NCBI GenBank assembly: GCA_013359225.1
Contig: JABWCG010000002.1
Coordinates: forward strand, 113,470-177,469
Origin: Candidatus Buchananbacteria bacterium
Lineage (GTDB): Bacteria > Patescibacteriota > Patescibacteriia > Buchananbacterales > UBA6539
Reading direction: 5' to 3'
Length of the DNA stretch: 64,000 bases
The notes under the pieces are model-generated. The model worked only from the letters and a program-made list of their open reading frames with translations. It did no database searches and had not been told where the DNA came from. The position numbers were made by a program, and so were the translations under genes. This document shows positions 39,901 through 59,609 of the stretch, piece after piece. Within the stretch, counting starts at the first letter, position 1; each line of letters opens with the position of its first letter.

Positions 39901-42900
39901 TGTTTGGTGCCAAATGACAACGGGTTGATTGCGTATTATCCGCTTGATGGGGTGGAGGCTGATTACTCCGGAAATGAGTTGGATGGTTTGAAAAACACAA
40001 ACGCTCCGTACCTGCCAGGCAAGTTTGGTCAGGCGGCGAATTTCTCAAGTGCTGATGAGTGGATTGAGGTTGCCAGTAACAGCAAGTTGCAGGTCTCTGG
40101 AGAGTTAACGGTAAGCGCCTGGGTTAATCTTAATGAAGGACTAAGCGGCGCCAACCCTGATGAACGAGGTCTTGGCATTATTGCTTCCGAATATGATTGG
40201 AATAGCGGCGGTGGCACTGAAACCGGCTGGACTTTAGGAGATGACTGGGGATGCAGCAATGCCGCCGGCAGTCCTTGTCCACCCGCCGATCAAATTTACT
40301 TTTCGGTTTTTGGTTCGGGCGGCTCGGTAGTTCGTGCCTATGCTAATAATTTTGCTCAAAACTATCTAGACCAGTGGGTATTAGTAACTGGTGTGTTTAA
40401 GCCTGGGCAGTATGTAAAACTCTATATTAATGGTGAAGAAAAATCGAGTACGGCGACAAATATTTCGTCTATTGTTTATAGCGCTGATACACCGCTACGA
40501 ATTGGTCACCGAGCTGATAATGATTATCAGGGTAACTGGATTGGCCGAATTGATGATGTCAAAATTTACAATCGGGCGCTAAGCGCTTCGGAAATTGCCG
40601 GACTGATGAAGCCAAATGTTTTGGAGTGCGTTTTCAATGTGCCGGCCAGAGGTAACCCGCAGCAAACTATTACTGATAATTATCAGTCGGTCGCTGAAGG
40701 CCGTAGCGTGTATGTTGGTGCCACTAATCGTCGGGCCAATGCGTTATGGTCGGATATTTACTTGATGTCCTATAGCCAGGGTGCGTCAAATAATACCATT
40801 GAAATTTTCAATCGGTTGCTTGATCCGGAACAGCTGACTGGCCGTTGGAGCTTTAATGCAAACGTTTCAAACCATCGGGTTTGTGATATTTATGGCTACT
40901 TTGAAGACACGACTAACATCTGTAGTGGTATTGGCACGTCCAATTTTGATTATTGTTCAACACTAGGAACCCCCGCCGCCTGTAATAATGACGCCGTTAC
41001 GTATGGCTGTTATTGGGATAGCCAGTTTGAAGTTTGTCTGGGTAAGATGTGTGAAGCAATTTATTGTGAAAATGATTTTGAATGTCCGAACTTAAGTTGT
41101 AATGCCAATAAGGAAAAAATTGTTCGCGATGCCGAGCGGTATGGTGACTTGCGTGATTTGCAGCTGGCCTTAAATCGATACGGCCAGACTAAGGGTGGTT
41201 ATCCGACCCTGGGCGGCGGTACCTACGTTCCAAACACGACGTTCTCGCAATGGCCAAGCTGGCAGCAGACGCTTGGAGCGGACTTGGGCGGGCGGCTATA
41301 TGTTGATCCGATTAATCGTTTTGTCGGTTGTTCAGATCATTATTGCGATGATAATGAAAGCGGTACTATTGACTCGGGTGAACGAACATTCTGTTTGGTT
41401 GGTGATGTTGATGCTTGCAGCAGCCGGCCGTACCTTTGTCTGGCGATTGATCCAGATCAGGAAGTAACTTGCTGGGATGAAATTACCAAGCAGTTCAGCT
41501 GCCCGGCTCAAATGTTCTCGTATGCCTATAACGCCATTAACGGCGGTGGTGACTACGCGCTTTATACTTCTTTTGAATATGATCAAATTGGCAGCTGGCG
41601 CAGTTTGCCGGGGTATTTCTGTGATACCAATAATAACGGTTCAATTCAAATCGATCAGGAAACAATCCGCTGTACGGTGAATGCCGACTGTACCAGCGGT
41701 GCCTGTTTGGCTTCAGCGGAAGCGGATTTATATGAATTGCCATTAACATCAACTGATGTTGAGTGTCGTGAATTAAACTTTACTTTGGATGCGGCAACAA
41801 TTAGCGGGGGAGTGAGTCCGGCTGAGTGCGCTGCCCGACGCTGTTATGGCGGTACTAATGATCCGGAAAACGATGAGTGTAATAGCGGAGAGGTAACTGA
41901 ATGTCCGGATTCCGGTCCTGGTACGTATTGTACGGGCGACGCTGATTATGATGGCATTTGTGATGTGGATGTCGGAACCGATAACTGTAATCCGTTCCTG
42001 GATTGTAAAGCTAACCCTCGTGATTGTTATAATCCTGATCAGCGCGATAGCGGAGGTATCCCCGGAAAAGGAGACGTTTGCGACGCGACGTGCGGTGCCG
42101 ACACCGACTCTGATGGTGTTTGCGACAGTTCGGATACTTGCCGCAACGTGTATAATCCGGCCAATGCCAGCTGTCTGGATGGCCATAGCAATCGAACCAA
42201 TGGTCAGTGTGATTATGACCTGGACAACATCGGCGACGCGTGTGACCCGTGTACTGATTTAGACCGTGATGGTTTTTGGGACAAAAATACTCCCGCCAAC
42301 ACCTGTTTGGCCGACAACTGTGCGGTAGGTCTGACCGTTTCAAATGATCGTTTTGGTTATTGCAGTGGTGATTTATCTATTCAGTGTAGTCCGGGCGCGG
42401 CCGGCAATACCATTTGTGCGGGCGCTGGAGCCGGTAGTTGTGTCCAACAGACTGGTAGTCTGGCTACTTATAATCCGTACCAGGAAGATTATGACGGAGA
42501 CGGCGTGGGATATATTTGTGATTTTTGTATTGATTTTGACGGCGATAGTCATGGTGATTATCCGTTTTATACCAGTTCAATGTTCGTGACAACCTTAACT
42601 CCTAACCAGCAGCAACATTTTAGTAGTTGTACTTCCGGCACGGCTTGGCCGGGCAACCCGGGAAATATTAATGACATTGACAACTGTCCGGGCGGACCGT
42701 TTGGTGCTGAATGTACAGATGAGTTCGGCATTGAAGTTTCTTGTTATAACCCCAGCGGCACGGCTTGGGAAGACCTGAATGGCACAAGCCACACCGGACA
42801 AAAAGATTTTAACCTAGATGGTATTGGTGACATTTGTGATGAATTTCGTGTTGGACTGGTTAATTGTGGCGACGGTATTACCGACCCGGGAGGCGGGGAA

Positions 42901-45900
42901 GCGTGTGACTGTGGTAAGTATGCCCTAACTTCCGATCCCTCAAGCCCGATTGTCTGCAGTACGATTAACGACCAACCCTGCAATCCCGGATATGATTCCA
43001 ATGTTGGCAATGGTTTGAATAATTGTAATTGGTGTTACCGCTGTCAGGAAGTAAAGAATGAAGAGGCGGGATATTGTGGTGATGATATCGTTCAGGCGCC
43101 TCAGGAAAACTGTGAACGTGGCAACGCTGGTTGTGATAATTCCTGCCAAAATTTTGAGCCGGCGGAATATTGTGACGCCAATGGGTATGATTCGGAAGTT
43201 ATTCATTTTAATTCGCCCACCGGCCAAACTTCTCATAATTTCTTAAATACCACTCCGGTTTACTTTTATATTCCGGAATGTAGTATCACTAACAGCACAG
43301 AGGTTAGTTTTGATATTGATATTACCGGCTCATTGCCGGATACGGGTATTGTTTTTGTAACAGATGTTTCCGGCAGTATGGCCGGCACCCGAATTACTGA
43401 CGCCAAGGCAGCAATAATTAATACTATTAATGATTTTGCTGCTACCGCCTTTGCCGGTAAAATTCATATTGGTTTGGTGAGCTATTCCACTGATAAAAGC
43501 CTTGATTCACCATTGGTGAAGGTTGATAACCCCACTAATGTCCAAAACTTGATCGCTAAAGTCAACGCATATGATGCCGTTGGCGGTACTGAACCGGATA
43601 AAGCAGTTCAGGAAGCAACTACAATGTTAGGCAGTTTTACCGGTAATCGTATTATGATTTTTATGACGGACGGTGATTCTCATTATACTTATGGTAATTA
43701 TGGTCCAGGTGAACCAGTCTGTTATGGCAGCCTTGATCACGGTAGTAACTGTCACGTAGTGCCAGTCTGTGAACATACGTGTGCGTATACTTGTAATGGC
43801 TCTGCTTGCCAGGAGTGCACAGCGACAAATATTTGGGGAGCCTGTACTACTTGGACAAATCGTTCGGGAACCTGCTGTCCTGATTGTCCCGGTAGTGTAG
43901 CGTATGAATTTACCTGTTCAGCCGCAAGTGTTTGTACTGGCTGTATTGCGAGCTCATCTAGTTTTACAAATGATTCTGATATTGCCAAGGGCGCACCTTA
44001 TAATATTGTTATTTATGGCGCGGCTTTTACGGGAGGCACTCAGACCGCTAACCCCACAGAAGTGAATTTAACTTCTTCTAACTGTCTTGGTGGTTCATGC
44101 AGTTCGAATTTCTGTAATAGTGGGTATTGTTTTGGTGAAGGTGGTTTAACTTTTGAAGATATTTATGGTGCAATTTATGATCAGATTGTTGAGGAGTTGG
44201 GGTATAGTTTTTCCGTTCTGGTTGATGGTGTTATGACAACTCCGATTGATTTGCCATATCAATCGCCCACGGGCGGTAGCTATCCGAATCAAACTATTGA
44301 TTTACCAAGTAACATTTGTACCAGCGGCACGGTTAATCCGTCTTATCCTGATTTTGGCCAACACACCTTGCAATTGGTTGGGCTGCCAAGCGGCATTCAA
44401 GCCAGTTTTAGCGGCGCGGCGGTGAATTATTGTACGACGTGTGATGAAGATAATGACGGCGTGATGGACGCGTCTTGCGGCGGCGCTGACTGTAATCCGG
44501 CGAACGCTAATATTCCGGTTGCGGAGTTAATTGCCGCCGGTAACTGTACTGACAATATTGATAATGACTGTGATGGCACTAAAGACGGAGCGGATATCGG
44601 GTGTGTTGATCCCGGAGGTGGGGGAACAATCCAAGAAGGAATTGGCAACTGTGCTGACGGCATTGATAATGATGTTGATTCCCGAACTGACTGCGCTGAT
44701 CCTGAATGTGTCGGAAAGCCCGGCCCTAACGGTGTGACTTGTTGCCAGGTGGGAACTGATTGTTCAACTTACGGCACGGGGCAATGTAACGCCTGTTCTA
44801 ACAATGTTTGTGTTGCGGTAACGGCCATTAATGGCAGTAATTGCGAAGGTACTTGCAGTTTTTGTAGCAATGGTACTTGTGTTAATCGCGAAACAGGTGA
44901 CGGTCGCGAATGTCCGGCCGGTTGGGCCTGTACTGGTCCGGCGGCAACAGCATACTGCTCGCCAAATGTTTCAGCTGAAAATTGCAGCCAAGCCGGCGAT
45001 GAAGACGGTGATGGTTTGGCCGATTGTGCGGACGTTGACGATTGTGACGGCCATACTGCGCCGGATGGCGGCATTTGTTGTACTGATAGTTTTGACTGTG
45101 GTGGTACGTGTCAGACTTGTTCGCCCACTGCTAAGCGGTGTGTACCTTATACCGGATTAAACGGTGGTCTGTGTTCTGGCGCCTGTACATATTGTAGTAA
45201 CGGCAGCTGCGTTGCCCGAACTAATGGCGACGGGCTTGAATGTCCGGTTGGTACTGTTTGTTCTGGTATGAGTTGTGTTGATCCGGGCGCTTCCAATGAT
45301 TGTACGGTGCCATCCTCAAAAGTTTGCCCATTCCAGCAGGGTGTTTGTAGTGGTTCGCGGGAAAATTGTGTGGCGCCGGGTGTCTGGCCGGGCTGTGATT
45401 ATCAAACATATGTAAACCATGCCGCCTCAACCGGCAAAACATATGAGGCTGGATTTGAATCACTTTGTACGGACGGTCAGGATAATGATTGTGACGGGCA
45501 GACTGACAGTGCCGATTCTGATTGTGGCGCGGTTTGTAACGATAATGGCACTTGCGACGGAGCGGAGAACTGTTCTAACTGTCCGGATGAATGTGCTTGT
45601 CTGCCGGGACAGTTGTGCTGTGGCGCGGCGACGTATAGCTGCGAAGTTCCGGATTGTAATGCTAATATTGATTGTAACGACAGCAACGCATCAACAATTG
45701 ATGTCTGCCAGGGTGCGGCGACTTGTAATGCAACTTGTATTCATACGCCGATTACGGCTTGTAGTAATGGGGACGGGTACTGTCCGGCCGGTTGTACGGC
45801 GTCTAATGATACTGACTGTGCTCCGGTCGCCGCATGTCAGGATACGGATGGCGGCAGCACGGTGTATACCACCCAGGGAACGGTTAGTGACGGCGTTGGC

Positions 45901-48243: not shown

Positions 48244-48948
48244 ATGTTTGATGATAAACCAAACAAGCCAAATCCAATGGCGCCTACCAATTTGCCGACT
48301 GCTCCCCAAAAATTAAGCCGGGAGCCGGAAGACATCTTAGATACTATTGATGAGGCTCCGGCCGCCGCGGCTCCAGTTTCCCGGCCTCAGCCGACTATTC
48401 CGGCGATGCCAGTGCCACCAGCAATGCCAAAGGCGGAAAGGGCAACTACCAAAGAGCCGTTTGCTTTTCATTATAAAAAGTTTGTTGTAGTTATTCTCGG
48501 CATATTATTGTTGGCGGGCTTGGCGTGGGGTGGCTGGTATGCGTATACGACGTTTTTAAGGCCTGATAAAACTGCAACCAATACCAATCAGCCGACGACC
48601 ACTAATCAGAATAACGCTAATACCAATCAGCCGAATGGTAATGCCGGCGCTGCAAACGTCAATCAACCCGGCAATGTTAATGTCGGTGGCGAAGGAACAC
48701 CGGTAGATCCAAAGCCAGTTGACTCCGACAGCGATGGTCTTGATGATGAAGAGGAAAAACTATATGGGACCAATCCGGACCGAGTTGATACGGATCTTGA
48801 CGGTTTAACTGATCGTGATGAGGTAAAAGTTTTTAAAACTGACCCGAATAATCCAGATAGCGATGGGGACACCTTCTTGGACGGTAATGAAGTTCGCGCC
48901 GGCTACGACCCGAAAGGGGACGGCAAACTCTTGGAAATAAATAATTAA
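48244..48948 (+). CDS. Single-pass membrane protein with an Asn/Thr-rich low-complexity linker and thrombospondin type-3-like Ca-binding repeats
   Basis: It has the TM helix FVVVILGILLLAGLAWGGWYAY, an NQPTTTNQNNANTNQPNGN linker, and the repeats 'DSDSDGLDDEEEKLYGTNPDRVDTDLDGLTDRDE...DPNNPDSDGDTFLDGNE'. Confidence 0.5.
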   Translation: MFDDKPNKPNPMAPTNLPTAPQKLSREPEDILDTIDEAPAAAAPVSRPQPTIPAMPVPPAMPKAERATTKEPFAFHYKKFVVVILGILLLAGLAWGGWYAYTTFLRPDKTATNTNQPTTTNQNNANTNQPNGNAGAANVNQPGNVNVGGEGTPVDPKPVDSDSDGLDDEEEKLYGTNPDRVDTDLDGLTDRDEVKVFKTDPNNPDSDGDTFLDGNEVRAGYDPKGDGKLLEINN

Positions 48949-48979: not shown

Positions 48980-49966
48980 ATGTTTAAGTTAGGGAAAAAT
49001 AAAGTCAGTGAATCAAAAACAGATACGGCGTTAACGTCCGGCGGGTCTGAAAGTGTTCATGTGATGCCGAGAAAATTTTATGTTGCACCTAAAAAGGGCA
49101 ATAACGGTCTAGTTATTATTATCGTTGTGGGAGTGCTGGTGGTTGGCGGCCTGGCGGCGGCGGCGATTTTTCTTAACTTAAGCCTTGGCAAAAATCAGGC
49201 CAGCAATCAAAATAGTAATACAAACACTTCAGCGTCGGTTACTACAAATACGGGCAATACTAACGTGAATATTAATAGCAACGTGAACGCTAATATTGGT
49301 ATGCCTGCAACGACTACGATTGATGTGCCGACGACAACCGATCCGGCAGTTAATATTAATGTGAATACCAATACATCAATTGATGATCCGGATATCAAAG
49401 ATGTAGAAGTAAAGCCCTTACCTTCAGCGCCTGATTCTGACAACGATGGTCTAACGCTTGAGGAAGAAAATTTATACGGCACCGACCCGTCGTTACTAGA
49501 TTCTGACAATGATGGCTTTTCCGACGGCTCGGAGCTTTTGAACGGGTATGACCCGACGCATGTCGGCCAGACGCTTGAGGCCTCAGGAGTTTTTACCAAG
49601 CACACTGGCGCTGGGTATTCAATTAGTTACCCGACCGGCTGGCAAGTGAGGCCGCAAAGTGACAATAGCGAAACATTGTTTATTTCAAGTACGGGCGAAT
49701 TTGTCGCTGTTATCATCATGGAAAATCCGGACAAGCTTCCTTTGGCAGAGTGGTATGCTAAGCAGTACCCGGATATTGATATTACCAATGCTGTTTCGGT
49801 CCGCTTAAATAGTTTTTCTGGATACCGCCATCCTGATAATCGGATTTATTTCCTGACCAAATCCGGCGACATTAGCAAGATTTTTATGGTTAATTATAAT
49901 GTTGGCAATTTCCGGCTGACTAATTTTGCCACCACGTTCAATTTGATGGTTAAGAGCCTTAATTAA
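48980..49966 (+). CDS. Paralogous single-pass membrane protein with an Asn-rich linker, TSP3-like repeats and a C-terminal globular domain
   Basis: It has the TM helix LVIIIVVGVLVVGGLAAAAIFL, an NQNSNTNTSASVTTNTGNTNVNINSN linker, and the repeats 'DSDNDGLTLEEENLYGTDPSLLDSDNDGFSDGSE'. Confidence 0.5.
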   Translation: MFKLGKNKVSESKTDTALTSGGSESVHVMPRKFYVAPKKGNNGLVIIIVVGVLVVGGLAAAAIFLNLSLGKNQASNQNSNTNTSASVTTNTGNTNVNINSNVNANIGMPATTTIDVPTTTDPAVNINVNTNTSIDDPDIKDVEVKPLPSAPDSDNDGLTLEEENLYGTDPSLLDSDNDGFSDGSELLNGYDPTHVGQTLEASGVFTKHTGAGYSISYPTGWQVRPQSDNSETLFISSTGEFVAVIIMENPDKLPLAEWYAKQYPDIDITNAVSVRLNSFSGYRHPDNRIYFLTKSGDISKIFMVNYNVGNFRLTNFATTFNLMVKSLN

Positions 49967-53086: not shown

Positions 53087-55465
53087 ATGATATTTGGTGT
53101 TGGAGAATCAAAACTAAAGCTTACCAAGAATGCTTTAAAGGTCTTGGAAAGCCGATATTTATTGAAAGATAATGACGGCAACGTAATTGAAAAGCCGATT
53201 GAAATGTTTAGGCGCGTTGCCGGTTTTATTGTAAAAGCGGAAGATAAGTATGGCTTGACCCAGGAAGAAAAAGATGACCTGGCTAAGGCTTTCCTGGAAG
53301 TGATGGTTGATTTTGAATTTTTGCCAAACAGTCCAACCTTTACCGGCGCTGGTACGCCTTTAGGGCAGTTGTCAGCCTGCTTTGTGCTGCCGGTGGGAGA
53401 CTCTATGGAAGAAATTTTTGAAGCGATCAAAAATACCGCTTTAATCCACAAATCCGGTGGCGGAACTGGTTTTTCATTTTCTCGTATTCGGCCGGCCAAA
53501 GATCCGGTGAAGTCCACTAGCGGTTTGGCATCGGGTCCAATTTCTTTTATGACCGTTTTTGATGCTGCGACCGATACGGTGAAACAGGGTGGCACTCGTC
53601 GTGGAGCTAATATGGGCATTCTGCGGGTGGATCATCCGGATATTATGGAATTTATTGTCGCTAAGGAAGATAACAATCGACTAAACAATTTTAATATTTC
53701 AGTGGCAATCACCGACAAGTTTATGGATGCGCTTGATAAGGGTGAAGAATATGATTTGCTCAACCCCCGTGACGGCAGGGCAATCGGTAAGTTAAACGCC
53801 AAAGAAGTGTGGGACAAAATTATTGATCACGCCTGGAAAAACGGGGACCCTGGTGTTATTTTTATTGATAAAATCAACAAACATAATCCTACGCCTCATG
53901 TTGGTAAAATTGAAAGCACCAATCCGTGTGGAGAACAGCCGCTGTTACCCTATGAATCTTGTAATTTAGGTTCAATTAACTTGGCCAAATTCGTTAAAGA
54001 AGGTGAAATTGATTATCAGCGCTTAGCTTTTGTTGTACAAACAGCAGTCAGGTTTTTAGATGATGTGATTGATATGAATAAGTATCCAATCCCGCAGATT
54101 TCTCAAATGACCAGAGCTAATCGTAAGATTGGTTTAGGGGTAATGGGTTGGGCTGACATGTTGGTTGATTTAGGTATTTCCTATAATTCAAACGAGGCGA
54201 TTGATTTGGCTGAAAAAGTAATGAAATTTATCAAAAACACAGCCGATCAGGCGTCGGTTGTTTTAGCTAAAGAAAAAGGAGTATTTCCTAATTTTGAAGG
54301 CAGTATTTATGACACGCCAGATAGCACCGGAATTAGAAATGCCACCAGAACCACTATCGCGCCAACCGGCACTATCAGTATTATTGCTAACTGTTCTTCC
54401 GGGATTGAGCCGCTATTTGCTTTGGCATATGTTAGAAAATCGCGCATCGGTAAGAAAGGCGATGACTGGGTTGAGTTAGTAGAGGTTAATCCTTATTTTG
54501 AAGCAGTTGCTAAAGAACGGGGATTTTATTCCAAAGAACTAATGGAAAAAATTTCTCAAGTTGGCTCGATCCAGCACCTTGATGAAGTGCCAGACGATGT
54601 GAAACGAGTATTTGTCACCTCTCACGACATTACGCCGGAATGGCATATTCGAATGCAGACTGCTTTTCAAAAATATGTTGATAATGCCGTTTCTAAAACC
54701 ATCAACTTTCCTAACGCCGCTACTCGTGATGATGTCGCCAAAGCGTATTTATTGGCGTACGAGAATGATTGCAAAGGAGTAACTATTTATCGGGATGGCA
54801 GTCGAGATGTTCAAGTTTTAACAACCGGTCAATCGCACAAAAAGGAAGAGGCTCCAAAGGAAACCACTACTCCTGCTGCGCCGTTTTATAAGCGCAAGCG
54901 CCCGATGATGATGCGCGGCACAACTTATAAAGTAAAAACGTCGTATGGTGATTTGTATATCACCATTAATGACGACGAACAGGGTAATCCCTTCGAAGTG
55001 TTTGCTACTATTGGTAAGGCTGGCGGATTTTTTTCAGCCAAGTCAGAAGCAATTTGTCGTTTAGTTTCCTTGGCGTTACGCGCCGGCATTCCGGCCCAGG
55101 AAGTAGTCAGTCAAATTAAAGGTATTCGTGGTCCGATGCCGTCTTGGGGTGAAGGGGGAATGATTTTGTCGCTTCCTGACGCTATTGCTCAGATTATTGA
55201 AAAACATCTCAGTCAAAATCAGCAGCGGCTGGAATTAGAATTTCATAATGGCAAAGTGACCAAAGAACAGTTATCTAAAACCCCGGCCTCCTATGATCCG
55301 GCTTCATCTTTGCCGGTAGATAGCGCCAAGCCTTCCAATGGCAACGGTAATCGGGAAATTGCCGATTTTGGTACCGCGCCAGAATGTCCTGATTGTGGCA
55401 ATATTTTGGAAATCGCCGAAGGTTGTTTGAAGTGTCGATCCTGTGGCTTTTCCCGCTGCGGGTAA
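53087..55465 (+). CDS. nrdJ: Adenosylcobalamin-dependent (class II) ribonucleotide reductase NrdJ with a C-terminal Zn ribbon
   Basis: The class II RNR core includes the active-site 'TNPCGEQPLLPYESCNLGSINL'. The C-terminal CPDCGNILEIAEGCLKCRSCGFSRCG segment is a Zn ribbon. Confidence 0.9.
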   Translation: MIFGVGESKLKLTKNALKVLESRYLLKDNDGNVIEKPIEMFRRVAGFIVKAEDKYGLTQEEKDDLAKAFLEVMVDFEFLPNSPTFTGAGTPLGQLSACFVLPVGDSMEEIFEAIKNTALIHKSGGGTGFSFSRIRPAKDPVKSTSGLASGPISFMTVFDAATDTVKQGGTRRGANMGILRVDHPDIMEFIVAKEDNNRLNNFNISVAITDKFMDALDKGEEYDLLNPRDGRAIGKLNAKEVWDKIIDHAWKNGDPGVIFIDKINKHNPTPHVGKIESTNPCGEQPLLPYESCNLGSINLAKFVKEGEIDYQRLAFVVQTAVRFLDDVIDMNKYPIPQISQMTRANRKIGLGVMGWADMLVDLGISYNSNEAIDLAEKVMKFIKNTADQASVVLAKEKGVFPNFEGSIYDTPDSTGIRNATRTTIAPTGTISIIANCSSGIEPLFALAYVRKSRIGKKGDDWVELVEVNPYFEAVAKERGFYSKELMEKISQVGSIQHLDEVPDDVKRVFVTSHDITPEWHIRMQTAFQKYVDNAVSKTINFPNAATRDDVAKAYLLAYENDCKGVTIYRDGSRDVQVLTTGQSHKKEEAPKETTTPAAPFYKRKRPMMMRGTTYKVKTSYGDLYITINDDEQGNPFEVFATIGKAGGFFSAKSEAICRLVSLALRAGIPAQEVVSQIKGIRGPMPSWGEGGMILSLPDAIAQIIEKHLSQNQQRLELEFHNGKVTKEQLSKTPASYDPASSLPVDSAKPSNGNGNREIADFGTAPECPDCGNILEIAEGCLKCRSCGFSRCG

Positions 55466-55473
55466 AACTAAAC

Positions 55474-56010
55474 ATGTTGAAGGGTGCTATGAAAAGTGAT
55501 TTAGGTAAAGTTCATGTGTATACCGGCGACGGTAAGGGCAAAACTACTGCATCGCTTGGTCTTGCTTTACGCGCCATCGGTGCTGGCTATCAGGTTTATA
55601 TTGTTCAATTTTTAAAAGGCCAAGACTATAGCGAATTAACCAGTCTAAAACCGCTTAAAGAAATTACCTTAAAGCGTTTCGGCCAAAAAAGTTTTATTAT
55701 CAAAAAGGCTAAGCCGACTGACATCGCTTTGGCAAAGCAGGGGTTGGCATGGGCGCGCCGGGTGATAAAAAGTAAAAAATTTGACGTGGTAATTCTGGAT
55801 GAGATATTTTTGGCGGTTTTTTTCAAAATGTTGAAAGTGTCCGATCTAGTTTCGTTGATTAAAATCAAACCAAAAAATGTTGAGTTGATTTTGACCGGCC
55901 GCCGCGCACCGGCGGCGGTAGTAGCTTTAGCTGATTATGTTACTGAAATGAAAGAGGTAAAACACCCTTATAAAAAAGGGGTAGTGGCCCGACGAGGCAT
56001 TGAAAACTAG
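55474..56010 (+). CDS. cobO: Cob(I)alamin/corrinoid adenosyltransferase (CobO/CobA/BtuR family)
   Basis: It has the P-loop 'VYTGDGKGKTTASLGLALRAIGAGYQVYIVQFLKG', which is typical of the CobA/BtuR family. The start is at the ATG at 55474, just after the nrdJ stop. The six-frame ORF begins at an upstream TTG inside nrdJ. Confidence 0.8.
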   Translation: MLKGAMKSDLGKVHVYTGDGKGKTTASLGLALRAIGAGYQVYIVQFLKGQDYSELTSLKPLKEITLKRFGQKSFIIKKAKPTDIALAKQGLAWARRVIKSKKFDVVILDEIFLAVFFKMLKVSDLVSLIKIKPKNVELILTGRRAPAAVVALADYVTEMKEVKHPYKKGVVARRGIEN

Positions 56011-56039
56011 GTTATCCACCGTCGTGATTCTTGACAGGC

Positions 56040-56300
56040 TCACTGGTAGTTCTAAAATTTAATTACTTAAAAATTTGGTTGCATCTTAATTTTCCGAAGT
56101 AAGGTTACATTCCTTCGCTGACCCGCAACTGTGAAGTCTTTTTTCACCCCCTAGGTGGAAAAAGAATAAGCCAGGTCGAGAAAATAAGAGCTTAATTAAC
56201 CCACGTAACTCTTCGAGGATATGAGAGGCATCGTGTCGCTGGTTTTAAGCCAGCTCTTAAAATTGCTCTAACTACGAGGAATTTTTTTATTTAATAATTC
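56040..56300 (+). promoter_or_regulatory. Cobalamin (B12) riboswitch in the 5' leader of the 56314 operon
   Basis: It contains the highly conserved core 'GCTGACCCGCAACTGTGAAG' (consensus gCUGcCCCCGCAACUGUAA). Preceding it are GGTTGCA...AAGGTTACATTCC (the GGUG.AA.UCC region). After it come a B12-box-like 'AAGCCAGGTCGAG' and a 3' hairpin GCTGGTTTTAAGCCAGC, which may be the expression platform. Confidence 0.6.
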
Positions 56301-56313
56301 ATAACTAACAGAT

Positions 56314-58110
56314 ATGATTAAAAAAAACGCATTACCTATTTTTCGAATAATCGTTGTTTTTTCACTGCTGCTGCAGCCGGTGTTTGTTTCGGCCAGTTTG
56401 TCGGGCGCTGTTAGTTATTTGGAAAGTCAGGTTGATGATCCTTGGATTACAATGGCACTCGTGGCTTCTGGCCAGACGAATATCCCAACCGGTCATTTAA
56501 AACAAGTTTCCGGAACAAGTGCCACTGATTATGCTAAAACGATTTTAGCCTTAGCGGCCCTGGGCAAAGACCCCTCGACATTTGGCAACGTTGATTATGT
56601 CGCTGCGTTGGAAGATACATTTGACGGCACACAAATTGGCGACGTGAATTTGTTAAATGATGACATGTGGGGCATATTAGCATTGGCAAGCGTTGGCAAA
56701 AAAACTTCAGCGGCAGTTACTGCCACTAAAACCTACTTATTGTCAAAACAAAACAGCGACGGCGGTTGGAGTTATTCAGCGGGAGCTGGTTCTGATACTA
56801 ACGATACCGCTGCTGCAGTCATCGCGTTAATTGAAGCAGGAGTTGGAGCAAATAATGAAGTAATTACTAAGGCGTTAGCGTATATCAAATCAGCGCAAAA
56901 CAGCGACGGCGGCGTTGGTTATCAACCGGGCAACGGCTCAGACGCCGGCTCAGACGCTTGGACGATTTCAGCCTTAATTAAAGCGGGAGTCAACCCGAGT
57001 GGCTGGACGAAGAACAATATCAGTCCGATTCAACACCTTGAATCCTTGCAAGACGAAGATGGCGGTTATTGGTGGGTTACCGAAGGTACCTCAGAATGGA
57101 ACAATAAAGCTATGACTGCATATGCGGTTATCGCTTTAAGCGGTGCCACCTATCCGGTTGGGTATTATCAATCAGGAGCTGCTAACGATGGTGAATTTCA
57201 TTTGAGAATTGAAGGTGCTAGTAATACTATTTGTGATACGTTTGTCGCCGGCGTTACAGCGCTTGATTTAGTTAAAAATGCCGCGGCGGAATGTGGATAT
57301 TCATATACGATTACTCAGGAGTCATTTGGTCCGTATTTGCGAGAAATCGCTGGCGAGACAGCTTCCGGATTGAATGGGTGGTTATACTTTGTAAACAGTG
57401 CTTCACCAATCGTTGGCGCGGCTGATTACCATTTAGCGTCTGGTGATGAAGTGTTGTGGTATTTTGGTGAGTGGGGAGTTATGCCGACGCGCTTGAATGT
57501 GAGTGAAACTCAAGTTGATCCCGGCCAGGCAATTGATGTAGTGGCTGAATATTTTGATGGCAGTTCTTGGCGTCCGGTTTCCGGTGCAACTATTAAGGTG
57601 AATGATGAAGTCCGGCAAGCGGGTACTAACGGTACGCTTGCCCTACAAATTTATGAAAATGGTATTTATCGGATTTATGCCGACCATGCTGGGTATGTCA
57701 GAAGTAATACAGTGACAGTGACGGTTGGTGACACAGTTAATCAGAATGTTGGTTTACAGGTTGAGATTAATCAGGGCACGGCTGGCGTTATCGGCGGTGA
57801 GGCAATTGCTTTAGTGGTTGATGCTTCTGATATTGATTTTGGCCCATTGGCTCCGGGACACGGCAGTGAGGCTGAGGTGGTCATATCAAATCAGGGAACA
57901 GTTAATCTTGGTGTTGGCACCCAGGTCAGCGGTGACGTGGTTTTCACCAAGGGTTTAAAGATTAACGACGCCGCTCATGCCGAGTATGCCGACACCCTGG
58001 TTGCCGGCCAGAGTAAATCAACAAAAGTTGTTTTAAATGTACCTAGTGATTATCTGGCTTCTGGCGTCAAAACGGGAGAGCTAACTTTTTGGGCAACTGT
58101 TCAACCGTAA
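56314..58110 (+). CDS. Secreted transcobalamin/intrinsic-factor-like putative cobalamin-binding protein. It has a signal peptide, a prenyltransferase/terpene-cyclase-like alpha/alpha-toroid, a DUF4430 (transcobalamin-like C-terminal) domain and two beta-sandwich domains.
   Basis: The repeated 'SDGGWSYSAGAGSDTNDTAAAVIALIEAG', 'SDGGVGYQPGNGSDAGSDAWTISALIKAG' and 'EDGGYWWVTEGTSEWNNKAMTAYAVIALSG' match alpha-toroid repeats. The DUF4430-like segment is '...GPYLREIAGETASGLNGWLYFVNSASPIVGAADYHLASGDEVLWYF'. The gene lies directly downstream of the Cbl riboswitch. Confidence 0.5.
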   Translation: MIKKNALPIFRIIVVFSLLLQPVFVSASLSGAVSYLESQVDDPWITMALVASGQTNIPTGHLKQVSGTSATDYAKTILALAALGKDPSTFGNVDYVAALEDTFDGTQIGDVNLLNDDMWGILALASVGKKTSAAVTATKTYLLSKQNSDGGWSYSAGAGSDTNDTAAAVIALIEAGVGANNEVITKALAYIKSAQNSDGGVGYQPGNGSDAGSDAWTISALIKAGVNPSGWTKNNISPIQHLESLQDEDGGYWWVTEGTSEWNNKAMTAYAVIALSGATYPVGYYQSGAANDGEFHLRIEGASNTICDTFVAGVTALDLVKNAAAECGYSYTITQESFGPYLREIAGETASGLNGWLYFVNSASPIVGAADYHLASGDEVLWYFGEWGVMPTRLNVSETQVDPGQAIDVVAEYFDGSSWRPVSGATIKVNDEVRQAGTNGTLALQIYENGIYRIYADHAGYVRSNTVTVTVGDTVNQNVGLQVEINQGTAGVIGGEAIALVVDASDIDFGPLAPGHGSEAEVVISNQGTVNLGVGTQVSGDVVFTKGLKINDAAHAEYADTLVAGQSKSTKVVLNVPSDYLASGVKTGELTFWATVQP

Positions 58111-58113
58111 ATT

Positions 58114-58593
58114 ATGTTTAGATCAATTGGAGCATTACTTTTATTGATACACTTCCTGGTTGGGCCGGCGGCTGCGGCGGTTGGCGTGGCGGTTAAACCG
58201 GTGCAGCTTACTTTGCAGGGAACAACGATGCGGGCCGCGGCGGGAGAATTTTTGGTGGCGAATGTTGATCAAGTTCCGGCATTGTATCAGGTGTCAGCGG
58301 ATCAATTTGGTGATATAATTTCATTTGATTCGGCTGATTTTCAGCTGCAGCCTCAGGAAACCAGAATTGTTAAGTTTAAAGCTTGGTTTGTCAGTCCAGG
58401 AACTTTTCAAACCAATATTTCAGTTGCCGCTAAACCGCTTGGGAACAGCGGTCTGGCCGCCGCTTCAGGCGTTAAAGTTCCGCTTACCATTACGGTGGGT
58501 GGAATTTCACTCATGGCGTTGATTGGCTTAATCATGGTTTTTTGTTTAGTCTTGGCAATATTGCTGATGATAAGATTAAAAAAGAAAAAATAA
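58114..58593 (+). CDS. Small surface protein with an N-terminal signal peptide, a beta-rich domain and a C-terminal TM anchor ending in KKKK
   Basis: MFRSIGALLLLIHFLVGPAAAAV...GISLMALIGLIMVFCLVLAILLMIRLKKKK. It is translationally coupled to the upstream gene, with a 3-nt gap. Confidence 0.4.
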   Translation: MFRSIGALLLLIHFLVGPAAAAVGVAVKPVQLTLQGTTMRAAAGEFLVANVDQVPALYQVSADQFGDIISFDSADFQLQPQETRIVKFKAWFVSPGTFQTNISVAAKPLGNSGLAAASGVKVPLTITVGGISLMALIGLIMVFCLVLAILLMIRLKKKK

Positions 58594-58624: not shown

Positions 58625-59056
58625 ATGAAGTTAATCGTTCGGGCCGTCATCATTGTCGCGATTTTTATTGCGGGATTTTTCGTCGGCAATCAATATCAGA
58701 CAATTTTTGACAGCAGTGTTAAACAAACTGAAAACCAATCAACAGCGATTAATGTCATGATTGATAGCGGCAAAGAGATTAAACTGTATGAAAGAGTTTC
58801 TATTGCCGAAAATGAAACGGTATTTGAATTATTGAAAAAGATTGCCGATGAAAACAATCTGGAGTTAGGCTACAAGGATTTTGGCGGTGAGCTGGGCGTC
58901 ATGATAGAATCAATCGGCGGTGTTAAGAATGACGTTAGCAGTAACGGGTTTTGGCAGTATTGGGTTAACAATTCTTATGCTCAGGTTGGGCCAAGCAGCT
59001 ATCGGATACACGCCGGTGATTCAATAACCTGGAAATATGTCACTAATCAATTTTAA
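58625..59056 (+). CDS. Membrane-anchored standalone DUF4430 (transcobalamin-like beta-domain) protein
   Basis: It has an N-terminal TM helix. The segment '...LELGYKDFGGELGVMIESIGGVKNDVSSNGFWQYWVNNSYAQVGPSSYRIHAGDSITWKYV' parallels the DUF4430 segment of the upstream gene. Confidence 0.45.
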   Translation: MKLIVRAVIIVAIFIAGFFVGNQYQTIFDSSVKQTENQSTAINVMIDSGKEIKLYERVSIAENETVFELLKKIADENNLELGYKDFGGELGVMIESIGGVKNDVSSNGFWQYWVNNSYAQVGPSSYRIHAGDSITWKYVTNQF

Positions 59057-59069
59057 TAACTCATATACT

Positions 59070-59609
59070 ATGAATACCAAGTTTAAATTAGCCACTGCAG
59101 CCCTATTAATTGTTTTAGGAGTAACCTGTCGTTTGTTGCCACATTTGTGGAACTTTGTTCCCGTAACTGCCATTGCTTTGTTCGCCGGATTTTATTTTGG
59201 TCGGCGGTATGCTTTGGTGTTGCCGTTAGTGATCGCTTTCGTCAGCGATTTATTTCTTGGGTTTTATCAGTGGCAATTAATGCTGGCAGTGTATCTGAGT
59301 TTTATGGTGGTCGGTATGATTGGTTTTATGGTTAGAAAATACAAGAACGTTGAAACAATTATAGCCGCCAGCATCAGTTCGTCGGTTTTGTTTTATTTAG
59401 TAACTAACTGGGCAGTCTGGCGATTTTCGCCGTGGTACGAAAAGTCTGTTAACGGATTACTTAGCTCTTATGTTTTGGCCGTGCCGTTTTTTAGGAATGC
59501 CCTGCTGGGTGATTTATTTTATACGGCGGTATTGTTTGGCTCGTATGAATTAGTGCATTTGATGGTTAGCCGCCATCGTCGTCTGTCAGCATTGGTTGAA
59601 ACAAAATAA
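59070..59609 (+). CDS. Small polytopic membrane protein; candidate ECF S-component-like (CbrT/BtuM-like) corrinoid transporter
   Basis: It is about 180 aa with 5-6 TM helices (LIVLGVTCRLLPHLWNFVPVTAIALFAGFYFG...). It is the last gene of the riboswitch-controlled unit. The function is assigned by context only. Confidence 0.3.
   Translation: MNTKFKLATAALLIVLGVTCRLLPHLWNFVPVTAIALFAGFYFGRRYALVLPLVIAFVSDLFLGFYQWQLMLAVYLSFMVVGMIGFMVRKYKNVETIIAASISSSVLFYLVTNWAVWRFSPWYEKSVNGLLSSYVLAVPFFRNALLGDLFYTAVLFGSYELVHLMVSRHRRLSALVETK

What the first reader, a model, noticed from the sequence alone, without database searches (positions are those of the whole stretch)
56314..58110. Bacterial protein with full transcobalamin/intrinsic-factor-like two-domain architecture under B12 riboswitch control
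The protein has an N-terminal alpha/alpha-toroid built from repeated xDGGWxYxxGxGSDxxxTAxAxIALIxAG units. A DUF4430 domain follows; this family is annotated as the transcobalamin-like C-terminal domain. The domain order matches eukaryotic transcobalamin and intrinsic factor (alpha domain, then beta domain). Two beta-sandwich domains are appended for surface display. The gene is the first one controlled by the cobalamin riboswitch. It could be a prokaryotic counterpart of the animal B12 carrier proteins.
Basis: partly seen in the sequence, partly recalled or inferred. Interest (0 to 1): 0.8.

Follow-up and report, generated by a model that had tools for sequence, protein, structure and literature searches.

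The report
Transcobalamin-like B12 catcher in CPR bacterium
A tiny-genome (Patescibacteria) bacterium encodes a secreted protein built like the animal vitamin-B12 carriers, switched off by a B12-sensing RNA and followed by a small membrane transporter; it most likely scavenges B12, a bacterial role proposed from sequence in 2007 but never tested biochemically.

Summary
ORF 56314-58110 (+) encodes a 598-aa secreted protein: signal peptide, single alpha/alpha toroid, DUF4430/SLBB domain and two beta-sandwich domains. An AdoCbl riboswitch precedes it. That riboswitch scores below Rfam's threshold here, but 14 of 28 related loci have one above threshold at the same position.

With the predicted structure as query, the 15 best Foldseek PDB matches are transcobalamin, intrinsic factor and haptocorrin, aligned across both domains. 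The SLBB profile finds only those proteins in the PDB. The toroid alone is nearer class II terpene cyclases, but no DxDD motif or conserved Cys occurs in 42 homologues, so a catalytic reading is disfavoured.

The operon is conserved across Patescibacteria: B12-dependent RNR, CobA adenosyltransferase, riboswitch, this protein, an anchored 159-aa partner, a membrane-anchored small SLBB protein, and DUF6580. DUF6580 has an ECF S-component fold; no ABC ATPase lies in the 64 kb.

Most likely function: extracellular corrinoid capture feeding an uptake relay.

The central idea is not new. Burroughs et al. 2007 described bacterial toroid+SLBB "transcobalamin-like" B12 scavengers. This is a new member in a new phylum. 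The untested leads are DUF6580 as transporter and p159 as anchor.

The parts
53087..55465 (+). Class II (adenosylcobalamin-dependent) ribonucleotide reductase NrdJ. It is the B12 consumer next to the locus and lies upstream of the riboswitch, so is not controlled by it.
   Evidence: NCBIfam NF006417 at 1199.6 bits (cut-off 961) and TIGR02504 NrdJ_Z; Pfam Ribonuc_red_lgC. An RNR lies in the same locus in 18 of 37 related loci.
55471..56010 (+). ATP:corrinoid adenosyltransferase (CobA/CobO/BtuR). It converts imported corrinoid to the adenosyl form.
   Evidence: Pfam PF02572 E 6e-61; TIGR00708 cobA at 174 bits against a cut-off of 167.75. Present in 19 of 37 related loci; in seven of them it sits inside the riboswitch operon.
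56031..56058 (+). Sigma-70-like promoter (TTGACA, 16 nt, TAAAAT) just upstream of the riboswitch.
   Evidence: Consensus scan, 11 of 12 matches. This is a pattern match only.
56067..56236 (+). AdoCbl/cobalamin riboswitch aptamer.
   Evidence: RF01482 at 42.1 bits (below the gathering score of 50), E 4.5e-6, full model 1-149. Orthologous above-threshold hits at the same position. Compensatory pairs in a 6-sequence alignment. The expression platform at 56237-56313 is not resolved.
56314..56394 (+). Signal peptide of the 598-aa protein (residues 1-27, ...VFVSA|SL). No lipobox Cys and no C-terminal anchor.
   Evidence: Hydropathy and direct reading of the sequence.
56395..57168 (+). Single alpha/alpha toroid (residues 28-285) with QW-like QN-DGG repeats. 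Polar motifs start four successive helices: TDY, NDD-W, SD-NDTA and SDSGSD-W.
57193..57471 (+). SLBB / DUF4430 beta-grasp domain (residues 294-386), homologous to the transcobalamin beta domain. Cys307 and Cys327 are invariant.
   Evidence: Pfam E 2.7e-10. The profile finds only TC/HC/IF in the PDB at E <= 0.2; 5no0 at E 2.9e-5. Cys conservation.
57487..57726 (+). First beta-sandwich domain (residues 392-471). It travels with the SLBB domain in distant archaeal and clostridial relatives.
   Evidence: AF2 strands. tblastn matches covering query residues 308/315 to 471 in L052, L053, L055, L057 and L058.
57811..58101 (+). Second beta-sandwich domain (residues 500-596), after a low-confidence linker.
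   Evidence: AF2. Weak NCBIfam choice-of-anchor D hit, E 0.004.
58114..58593 (+). p159: signal peptide, ~95-residue beta-rich ectodomain, and a C-terminal transmembrane helix ending in KKKK. It is the most constant neighbour and a candidate membrane tether for the anchorless 598-aa protein.
   Evidence: Hydropathy. Directly downstream in 33 of 37 related loci. Only weak Ig-like or MSP-like Pfam hits. No BLASTP similarity to the C-terminal domains of the 598-aa protein.
58625..59056 (+). Small SLBB protein (143 aa): an N-terminal membrane anchor followed by one DUF4430 domain. It is the second, paralogous extracellular SLBB.
   Evidence: Pfam DUF4430 E 3.9e-17. Hydropathy. Present in 24 of 37 related loci.
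59070..59609 (+). DUF6580 membrane protein (179 aa from the NCBI start; the ORF opens at 59037). It has an ECF S-component-like fold and is the candidate corrinoid transporter.
   Evidence: Pfam DUF6580 E 3e-48; ECF_trnsprt at 24.9 bits, below the cut-off of 30.7. AF2 pLDDT 94.5. Foldseek top hits are RibU, ThiT, FolT and PanT with TM 0.55-0.65. Present in 25 of 37 related loci.

Best explanation
The 598-aa protein is the secreted, corrinoid-binding head of a riboswitch-controlled vitamin-B12 salvage operon in a Candidatus Buchananbacteria (Patescibacteria/CPR) bacterium.

Shown here:
- It is exported (signal peptide).
- It has a non-catalytic alpha/alpha toroid followed by an SLBB domain homologous to the transcobalamin beta domain.
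- As a two-domain unit, its best structural matches are TC/IF/HC.
- It is the first gene behind an AdoCbl riboswitch.
- It is embedded in a conserved block: NrdJ, CobA, riboswitch, Tor-SLBB, p159, TM-SLBB, DUF6580.

Inferred mechanism:
1. A corrinoid is clamped between the polar face of the toroid and the SLBB domain, as in transcobalamin.
2. The anchorless protein is held at the cell surface by p159, a type I membrane protein that almost always follows it.
3. The ligand is passed to the membrane-anchored small SLBB protein.
4. It is then passed to DUF6580, an ECF S-component-like membrane protein. DUF6580 carries it across the membrane either alone (like BtuM) or with an ECF module encoded elsewhere.
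5. CobA adenosylates the corrinoid for the B12-dependent ribonucleotide reductase.
6. AdoCbl then shuts the operon off through the riboswitch.
For: - Fold: Foldseek top 15 are TC/IF/HC across both domains.
- Beta-domain homology: Pfam DUF4430. Profile to TC beta at E 2.9e-5, with TC G360-P361-Y362-L363 aligned to an identical G339-P340-Y341-L342, W377 to W356, and G390-x-A392-D393-Y394 to G368-x-A370-D371-Y372. The loop just before the GPYL motif contacts the cobalamin phosphate in TC (L358; Bloch 2017).
- Non-catalytic toroid: no DxDD, no DDxxD and no conserved Cys.
- Regulation: AdoCbl riboswitch in the window and at the same place in 14 (+3 sub-threshold) of 28 CPR loci. Distant relatives in Bacillota, Coriobacteriia and Thermoleophilia also follow cobalamin riboswitches, in 6 of 12 loci scanned.
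- Context: p159 in 33/37 loci, DUF6580 in 25/37, small SLBB in 24/37, CobA in 19/37 and RNR in 18/37. CobA sits inside the operon in seven loci.
- Transporter: DUF6580 has an ECF S-component fold.
- ECF link in distant relatives: L051 and L066 link the same domains to CbiQ (plus an ABC ATPase in L066). L066 appears to fuse an S component to a toroid.
- Modularity: split alpha and beta versions exist in CPR (L045). TC alpha and beta domains expressed separately assemble on cobalamin (Bloch 2017, PMC5599065).
- Prior prediction of the same function for this class: Burroughs 2007.
Against: - No binding experiment exists for any bacterial member.
- The AF2 inter-domain geometry is uncertain (pTM 0.52; 23 A global rmsd to holo-TC), so no cleft or ligand contacts could be examined.
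- The toroid is closer to terpene cyclases than to the TC alpha domain.
- No conserved His or Cys is available as a cobalt ligand.
- The window's riboswitch is below Rfam's gathering score, and its expression platform was not resolved.
- No ECF ATPase or T component lies in the 64 kb, so the energy source for transport is unknown.
- Several loci have Tor-SLBB + p159 with no DUF6580 nearby. Of those scanned, L037, L039 and L033 also gave no riboswitch at gathering threshold, whereas L031 did.
- The only experimental study of a split homologue (L. sakei Lsa1839/1840) argued for haem uptake.
Confidence: 0.7

Rival explanations
1. The protein captures a different tetrapyrrole or an incomplete corrinoid (haem, cobinamide, or cobamides with other lower ligands), not cobalamin itself.
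For: - The L. sakei ECF operon with split TC-beta-like (Lsa1839) and TC-alpha-like (Lsa1840) proteins was reported to act in haem uptake (bioRxiv 10.1101/864751).
- The reviewers of Burroughs 2007 cautioned that SLBB ligands may be diverse.
- No cobalt-ligating His or Cys is conserved.
- TC-beta and haptocorrin also bind cobinamide.
Against: - The operon is controlled by an AdoCbl-type riboswitch. It is flanked by a B12-dependent RNR and a corrinoid adenosyltransferase, not by haem genes.
- The motifs that align with the TC nucleotide/phosphate-side loops (GPYL, W, G-x-ADY) are conserved.
- A broad corrinoid specificity, like that of haptocorrin, would be a refinement of the main explanation and not a contradiction.
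Confidence: 0.12
2. The protein is a surface or envelope structural protein, or a competitive B12 'hoarder'. It does not hand ligand to a transporter, and the riboswitch link only reflects co-transcription with the real uptake genes.
For: - Tor-SLBB + p159 occur without DUF6580 or small SLBB in several loci (L031, L034, L035, L037, L039). Some of these gave no riboswitch at gathering threshold (L037, L039, L033).
- The two C-terminal beta-sandwich domains resemble adhesin or S-layer modules.
- The Bacillota relative L051 carries SLH domains.
Against: - It is the first and largest gene of the riboswitch unit in most loci.
- The SLBB and toroid polar motifs are invariant across 42 homologues at 44-65% identity, which argues for a ligand site.
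- Hoarding and delivery are not mutually exclusive.
Confidence: 0.12
3. The toroid is an enzyme (terpene cyclase, prenyltransferase or glycoside-hydrolase-like) acting on an envelope lipid or glycan. DUF4430 is then only an accessory binding module.
Against: - No DxDD or DDxxD motif in any of 42 homologues, and no conserved Cys for a zinc site.
- A single 260-residue toroid, not a beta-gamma didomain.
- Secreted, with no access to isoprenoid diphosphates.
- Every element of the genomic context concerns B12.
Confidence: 0.04

Closest known systems
Animal cobalamin carriers: transcobalamin, intrinsic factor, haptocorrin (PDB 2bb5, 4zrp, 2pmv, 4kki)
   Same: - N-terminal alpha6/alpha6 toroid followed by a C-terminal SLBB beta-grasp domain, in the same order, in a secreted protein.
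- Best whole-chain structural matches (Foldseek E 1e-11 to 1e-9).
- The beta domains are sequence-homologous, with shared GPYL / W / G-x-ADY motifs.
   Different: - The alpha domain is not detectable as TC-like by sequence and is nearer terpene cyclases.
- No TC-type axial His.
- Two extra beta-sandwich domains.
- Works with a bacterial membrane transporter, not an endocytic receptor.
- Expression is controlled by a riboswitch.
- Cobalamin binding is untested.
Bacterial 'transcobalamin-like clade' SLBB + alpha/alpha-toroid secreted proteins predicted by Burroughs, Balaji, Iyer & Aravind 2007 (Biol Direct 2:4, PMC1796856)
   Same: [quoted passage not shown] Relatives in Bacillota and Coriobacteriia with CbiQ or an ABC ATPase and cobalamin riboswitches were recovered here.
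   Different: - That work covered Firmicutes and some archaea. Patescibacteria were unknown then.
- The CPR operon has no CbiO/CbiQ genes in 64 kb. It carries DUF6580, p159 and, alongside, NrdJ and CobA.
- The riboswitch link is not mentioned in the passages of that paper read here.
Lactobacillus sakei Lsa1836-1840 (ECF S, A-A', T plus TC-beta-like Lsa1839 and TC-alpha-like Lsa1840)
   Same: Extracellular TC-like alpha and beta modules encoded with an ECF-type S component. Split alpha/beta versions also exist in CPR (L045).
   Different: - Alpha and beta are separate proteins.
- A complete ECF module is present.
- The authors assign haem uptake, and no riboswitch context is reported.
ECF-CbrT and BtuM (B12-specific ECF-type S components)
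   Same: Small membrane proteins of about 180 residues with the S-component fold, used for B12 import. BtuM works without an ECF module (PMC5997447 and PMC6072759 abstracts). DUF6580 has the S-component fold, and no ATPase is nearby.
   Different: - DUF6580 is a separate Pfam family.
- Its only similarity to CbrT (6fnp_A) is a phmmer E of 3.5, and BtuM was not recovered at all.
- The BtuM Cys ligand has no established counterpart.
- Neither CbrT nor BtuM is known to use extracellular TC-like partners.
BtuG/BtuH surface B12-binding lipoproteins of Bacteroidota (from my own knowledge; not examined here)
   Same: Functional analogy: surface-exposed, high-affinity B12 capture proteins encoded in riboswitch-controlled uptake loci.
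   Different: Unrelated folds (beta-propeller and others), and coupled to the TonB-dependent BtuB in a diderm envelope.

Membership tests
Transcobalamin / intrinsic factor / haptocorrin family | N-terminal alpha6/alpha6 toroid domain | tested here: met
Transcobalamin / intrinsic factor / haptocorrin family | C-terminal SLBB beta-grasp domain homologous to the TC beta domain (Pfam DUF4430) | tested here: met
   PF14478 at E 2.7e-10, 41 bits against a cut-off of 23.8. The profile A3 hits only TC/HC/IF in the PDB at E <= 0.2, best 2.9e-5.
Transcobalamin / intrinsic factor / haptocorrin family | Alpha-then-beta order in one secreted chain; whole-chain structural match | tested here: met
   Foldseek top 15 are TC/IF/HC with 410-438 aligned columns on ~400-residue targets. 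Signal peptide.
Transcobalamin / intrinsic factor / haptocorrin family | Alpha domain belongs to Pfam Cobalamin_bind (PF01122) or is detectably similar in sequence to the TC alpha domain | tested here: not met
   No PF01122 hit at E <= 0.01. The toroid profile A4 finds 39 PDB sequences at E <= 10, all terpene cyclases or prenyltransferases and none TC/IF/HC.
Transcobalamin / intrinsic factor / haptocorrin family | Binds one cobalamin between the two domains | not testable with these tools
   No ligand modelling is available. The inter-domain geometry of the model is uncertain (pTM 0.52).
Transcobalamin / intrinsic factor / haptocorrin family | His side chain as upper axial cobalt ligand (transcobalamin only; absent in IF and HC; from my own knowledge of Wuerges 2006) | tested here: not met
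   No invariant His in the toroid. H61 and H241 are replaced by Y/F/Q in some homologues, and one homologue has no His at all in the toroid.
Bacterial transcobalamin-like SLBB+toroid scavengers (Burroughs et al. 2007) | Signal peptide, with toroid fused to SLBB, often with Ig-fold domains | tested here: met
   Description of the class.
Bacterial transcobalamin-like SLBB+toroid scavengers (Burroughs et al. 2007) | [quoted passage not shown] | tested here: met
   58625-59056, DUF4430 at E 3.9e-17 with an N-terminal anchor.
Bacterial transcobalamin-like SLBB+toroid scavengers (Burroughs et al. 2007) | Operon encodes a CbiO-like ATPase and a CbiQ-like T component | tested here: not met
   No Walker A or LSGGQ motif in any frame of the 64-kb window. 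An S-component-like DUF6580 is present. The distant relatives L051 and L066 do have CbiQ, and L066 also an ABC ATPase.
Bacterial transcobalamin-like SLBB+toroid scavengers (Burroughs et al. 2007) | Host lacks de novo B12 synthesis | not testable with these tools
   Only 64 kb is visible. The ORFs scanned (all those of 52-64 kb plus about half of the longer upstream ORFs) include no cob/cbi gene other than cobA.
Class II terpene cyclases / protein prenyltransferase beta subunits | Alpha/alpha toroid with QW-type repeats | tested here: met
Class II terpene cyclases / protein prenyltransferase beta subunits | Catalytic DxDD acid motif (cyclases) or Asp/Cys/His zinc site (prenyltransferases) | tested here: not met
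   0 of 42 homologues have DxDD or DDxxD. 38 of 42 have no Cys in the toroid. The position that aligns with the SHC D374-x-D376-D377 motif reads D161-T-N163-D164, with N163 invariant.
Class II terpene cyclases / protein prenyltransferase beta subunits | Beta-gamma double toroid (cyclases) or an alpha-subunit partner (prenyltransferases), acting inside the cell or at the membrane | tested here: not met
   A single toroid of ~260 residues. Signal peptide.
AdoCbl riboswitch (Rfam RF01482, clan CL00101) | Score at or above Rfam's gathering threshold | tested here: not met
   42.1 bits against 50, and not reported in the whole-window gathering scan.
AdoCbl riboswitch (Rfam RF01482, clan CL00101) | Full-length aptamer with a conserved B12-box core and supported helices, in a 5'-UTR of a B12-related gene | tested here: met
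   Model positions 1-149 matched, E 4.5e-6. Orthologues score 52-75 bits at the same position. 12 of 40 pairs show compensatory change in 6 sequences.
ECF transporter S components (applies to DUF6580, 59070-59609) | S-component fold | tested here: met
   AF2 pLDDT 94.5. Foldseek's top nine hits are all S components (RibU, ThiT, FolT, PanT), TM 0.50-0.65, but E is only 0.1-1.3.
ECF transporter S components (applies to DUF6580, 59070-59609) | Pfam or sequence membership, and an EcfA/A'/T energising module | tested here: not met
   PF12822 at 24.9 bits, below the cut-off of 30.7. No ABC ATPase in the window. A module elsewhere in the genome cannot be excluded.

The most novel reading that the evidence does not exclude
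Patescibacteria import B12 through a self-contained relay that needs no ABC ATPase. The relay is a secreted transcobalamin-like binder held on the cell by p159, then a membrane-anchored SLBB protein, then a solitary S-component-like transporter (DUF6580). This would be a new class of B12 transporter. It would also be the only vitamin-uptake route defined for this very large, uncultured radiation, in which DNA synthesis via NrdJ would depend on B12 taken from neighbouring cells. A further possibility is that these toroid+SLBB proteins are close to the bacterial stock from which the animal carriers were acquired.
Probability: 0.25. Interest if true: 0.7.

Novelty: new member of a known kind. Interest (0 to 1): 0.45.

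Why it matters
Patescibacteria (CPR) have tiny genomes and generally lack vitamin biosynthesis (my own background knowledge; not tested here). How they obtain cofactors is largely unknown. This locus places three things side by side: the B12-dependent ribonucleotide reductase, the adenosyltransferase, and a riboswitch-controlled set of four extracytoplasmic or membrane proteins.

That gives a concrete and testable route for B12 acquisition. It also supplies a compact, well-conserved model protein (1,213 clusters at E <= 1e-30) for testing the 2007 prediction that bacteria have transcobalamin-like B12 binders. No biochemical test of that prediction turned up in the literature searches made here.

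- DUF6580 as an S-component-like B12 transporter with no ATPase nearby.
- p159 as the constant partner of the binder.

Tried and rejected
- The search for related loci with the single protein found no relatives. The alignment-based scan worked.
- Wuerges 2006 (PMC1450181) and Furger 2013 (PMC3757208) are not held. The list of TC residues that contact cobalamin therefore could not be cited. Only L358 (phosphate H-bond) comes from a paper read here.
- Expression platform: no intrinsic terminator is predicted between the aptamer and the start codon. The MFE fold of 56195-56330 is only mildly better than shuffles (z -2.3). The switching mechanism (transcriptional or translational) is left open.
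- p159 compared with the C-terminal beta-sandwich domains of the 598-aa protein: no BLASTP similarity. The idea that p159 is a duplicated domain was dropped.
- Literature searches for DUF6580 (0 papers), for Patescibacteria + cobalamin + riboswitch (0), and for B12 riboswitch + prenyltransferase or ECF found no relevant study. The 8 papers that mention DUF4430 were judged from titles and abstracts only, and none appears to address its bacterial function.
- Catalytic-enzyme reading: rejected at motif level.
Full report
**What is there**

The window is from a Candidatus Buchananbacteria (Patescibacteria/CPR) metagenome-assembled genome. The 598-aa product of ORF 56314-58110 (+) is 100% identical to an NCBI protein from such a MAG, annotated only as 'DUF4430 domain-containing protein'.

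Pfam places DUF4430 at residues 313-385 (E 2.7e-10). It places prenyltransferase/squalene-hopene-cyclase toroid repeats at 109-254 (E ~1e-7), all above the curated cut-offs.

An AlphaFold2 model built on 42 homologues (pLDDT 84, pTM 0.52) shows:
- a signal-peptide helix;
- 12 helices at 29-275;
- an alpha/beta domain at 294-386;
- a beta-sandwich at 392-471;
- a low-confidence linker at 473-498;
- a second beta-sandwich at 500-596.

Hydropathy shows an N-terminal signal peptide, no lipobox and no C-terminal anchor.

**The riboswitch**

At Rfam's gathering threshold the window shows only tRNAs. A permissive scan of 55300-56500 gives a full-length AdoCbl (RF01482) match at 56067-56236 (+). It scores 42.1 bits against a threshold of 50, with E 4.5e-6.

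I accept it as real for four reasons.
- Of 28 related Patescibacteria loci scanned, 14 carry an above-threshold AdoCbl or Cobalamin hit. In 11 it lies directly upstream of the orthologous gene. In L001 and L009 it precedes an extra toroid-only paralogue that sits just ahead of that gene, and in L045 it precedes a small SLBB gene.
- Three of five further loci examined at a lax threshold have a sub-threshold hit at the same position.
- In an alignment of the window's element with five orthologues, the conserved core is kept and 12 of 40 predicted pairs show compensatory changes.
- A near-consensus promoter-like site (TTGACA-16-TAAAAT) lies at 56031-56058.

The expression platform is unresolved. 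No terminator is predicted, and the fold is only weakly better than shuffles.

**Is it transcobalamin-like?**

With the whole model as query, the 15 best Foldseek matches in the PDB are transcobalamin, intrinsic factor and haptocorrin (E 1e-11 to 1e-9). They align 410-438 columns, which covers both domains of the ~400-residue targets. Squalene-hopene cyclases, drimenyl diphosphate synthase and prenyltransferase beta subunits follow at about 1e-7. The global rmsd of about 23 A shows that the modelled domain orientation differs from holo-TC, so nothing can be said about a cleft.

A profile of the SLBB domain finds only TC, HC and IF at E <= 0.2 in the PDB. The best is the isolated TC beta domain 5no0 at E 2.9e-5. 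TC G360-P361-Y362-L363 aligns to an identical GPYL at 339-342, W377 to W356, and G390-x-ADY to G368-x-ADY. In TC the backbone of L358, just before that GPYL, binds the cobalamin phosphate (PMC5599065).

**Is the toroid an enzyme?**

- None of 42 homologues has a DxDD or DDxxD motif in the toroid.
- 38 have no cysteine there.
- The segment that aligns with the squalene-hopene cyclase DxDD reads D161-T-N163-D164, with N163 invariant.
- The domain is a single ~260-residue toroid on a secreted protein.

No His is invariant either, so a TC-style axial His is not a feature. Intrinsic factor and haptocorrin lack it too (my own knowledge). Cys307 and Cys327 in the SLBB domain are invariant, and I infer a disulfide.

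Four successive helix starts carry invariant polar motifs: T71-D72-Y73, N115-D116-D117-x-W119, S160-D161-x-N163-D164-T165-A166, and S209-D210-x-G212-S213-(D214)-x-W216 (D214 is conserved in at least 90% of the homologues but is not invariant). I infer, but could not show, that they line the ligand-facing mouth of the toroid.

**Surroundings**

Upstream, outside riboswitch control, lie two genes:
- an adenosylcobalamin-dependent ribonucleotide reductase (NF006417, 1199.6 bits);
- the corrinoid adenosyltransferase CobA (TIGR00708, above its cut-off).

Downstream, tightly packed on the same strand, lie three genes:
- p159, with a signal peptide, a ~95-residue beta-rich ectodomain and a C-terminal TM helix ending in KKKK;
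- a 143-aa protein with an N-terminal membrane anchor and a second DUF4430 domain (E 3.9e-17);
- DUF6580 (E 3e-48).

The DUF6580 model (pLDDT 94.5) has ECF S components as its top nine Foldseek matches (RibU, ThiT, FolT, PanT; TM 0.50-0.65). The E-values are weak, at 0.1-1.3. No Walker A or ABC signature motif occurs anywhere in the 64 kb.

**Conservation**

Among 37 genome loci with a near-full-length homologue:
- p159 follows directly in 33;
- DUF6580 is within 2 kb in 25;
- the small SLBB is present in 24;
- CobA is present in 19;
- a class II RNR is present in 18.

In seven loci CobA lies inside the operon, between p159 and the small SLBB.

Other architectures occur:
- Split versions exist. 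In L045 the order is riboswitch, TM-SLBB, toroid without SLBB, DUF6580.
- L051 (Bacillota) has riboswitch, a 1160-aa toroid+DUF4430+SLH protein, a DUF4430 protein, then CbiQ.
- L066 (Coriobacteriia) has riboswitch, DUF4430, CbiQ, an ABC ATPase, and an ORF that appears to fuse an S component to a toroid.

Six of 12 distant loci scanned carry strong cobalamin riboswitches. A profile of the family retrieves 1,213 50%-identity clusters at E <= 1e-30.

**Mechanism**

Shown:
- export;
- TC-like two-domain architecture;
- a non-catalytic toroid at motif level;
- B12 riboswitch control;
- conserved linkage to a B12 user, a B12 adenosyltransferase, a second anchored SLBB and an S-component-like membrane protein.

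Inferred:
- The protein clamps a corrinoid between toroid and SLBB.
- p159 tethers it to the cell.
- The ligand passes to the anchored SLBB and then to DUF6580.
- CobA and NrdJ use it, and AdoCbl represses the operon.

The modular alpha/beta logic has precedent. Separately expressed TC alpha and beta domains assemble on cobalamin, and TC-beta binds cobalamin alone. I put 0.7 on the general function and considerably less on each hand-off step.

**Rivals**

- Another tetrapyrrole or an incomplete corrinoid as ligand. The L. sakei split homologues were assigned to haem uptake.
- A structural or hoarding role without delivery. Some loci lack DUF6580. Of these, L037 and L039 also gave no riboswitch at gathering threshold, although L031 did.
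- An enzymatic toroid. This is disfavoured at motif level.

**Comparison with what is known**

The central claim was made in 2007. Burroughs, Balaji, Iyer and Aravind defined the SLBB superfamily. [quoted passage not shown] They noted a second paralogous SLBB protein in the operon and linkage to CbiO/CbiQ. [quoted passage not shown]

The present locus is a new member of that class in a phylum unknown at that time. It differs in three ways:
- it has no adjacent ECF module;
- it carries DUF6580 and p159;
- it lies next to NrdJ and CobA.

I found no paper reporting cobalamin binding by a bacterial member. I also found nothing on DUF6580 or on B12 uptake in Patescibacteria in the searchable library.

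**Verdict**

Interest is 0.45. A specialist who knows the SLBB paper or the InterPro label of DUF4430 would not be surprised by the architecture. The CPR operon nevertheless offers a compact system for finally testing the prediction, and it points to a candidate ATPase-independent B12 transporter.

Noticed in passing
window 28052-30928 and 30955-48225 (+); also 48244-48948 and 48980-49966: Two very large proteins (958 and 5,756 aa). Each starts with a type IV secretion pilin-like (TrbC/VirB2) domain, followed by Big_5, Laminin_G_3, VWA and MopE-type motifs. Two TSP3-repeat proteins come next. This looks like a giant surface or pilus-associated apparatus.
   Followed up: partly
L066 5260-6543 (Coriobacteriia MAG CAVYJL010000002.1): An ORF with ECF S-component Pfam hits at residues 26-134 and a prenyltransferase-like toroid at 248-415. 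This is an apparent fusion of transporter S component and toroid. It lies downstream of a Cobalamin riboswitch, a DUF4430 protein, CbiQ and an ABC ATPase. ORF calling in this high-GC contig was not checked.
   Followed up: partly
L045 5067-8263 (also L041, L044): A CPR variant in which the transcobalamin-like halves are separate proteins. The order is riboswitch, membrane-anchored SLBB (189 aa), toroid protein without SLBB and with an unrelated C-terminal half (568 aa), then DUF6580. There is no p159.
   Followed up: partly
L018, L019, L020, L025, L028, L038, L043: In this CPR subgroup the CobA adenosyltransferase gene lies inside the operon, between p159 and the small SLBB gene. The upstream RNR is only 26-27% identical to the window's NrdJ.
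   Followed up: no
L031, L034, L035, L037 (complete Nealsonbacteria genome CP179889.1), L039: The Tor-SLBB + p159 pair occurs without DUF6580 or the small SLBB nearby. L037 and L039 gave no riboswitch at gathering threshold, L031 did, and L034 and L035 were not scanned. In L037 the neighbours are housekeeping genes (tRNA synthetases, M16 peptidase, AI-2E transporter). The pair may be the minimal unit, with the transporter elsewhere.
   Followed up: partly
L001 4727-5497, L006 321-1076, L009 2830-3579: An extra toroid-only paralogue (~30% identity to residues 25-289) sits just upstream of the main gene. In L001 and L009 it lies between the riboswitch and the main gene; L006 gave no riboswitch hit.
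   Followed up: no
window 59037-59069: The DUF6580 ORF opens 11 codons upstream of the start used by NCBI (59070) and overlaps the end of the small SLBB gene by 20 nt. The true start is uncertain.
   Followed up: no
record titles of L003, L004, L011, L015, L026, L027 and others; protein P0042: Several contigs carrying this typical Patescibacteria operon are labelled 'uncultured Gammaproteobacteria', 'Candidatus Saccharibacteria' or 'Candidatus Methanoperedens' in their records. These are probably binning or labelling errors.
   Followed up: no
window 56314-58110, NCBIfam hit: The toroid matches NF053823 'SCO2321 family membrane protein' at E 2.5e-26 (92.5 bits, far below its cut-off of 300). 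This hints at related toroid proteins in Actinomycetota.
   Followed up: no
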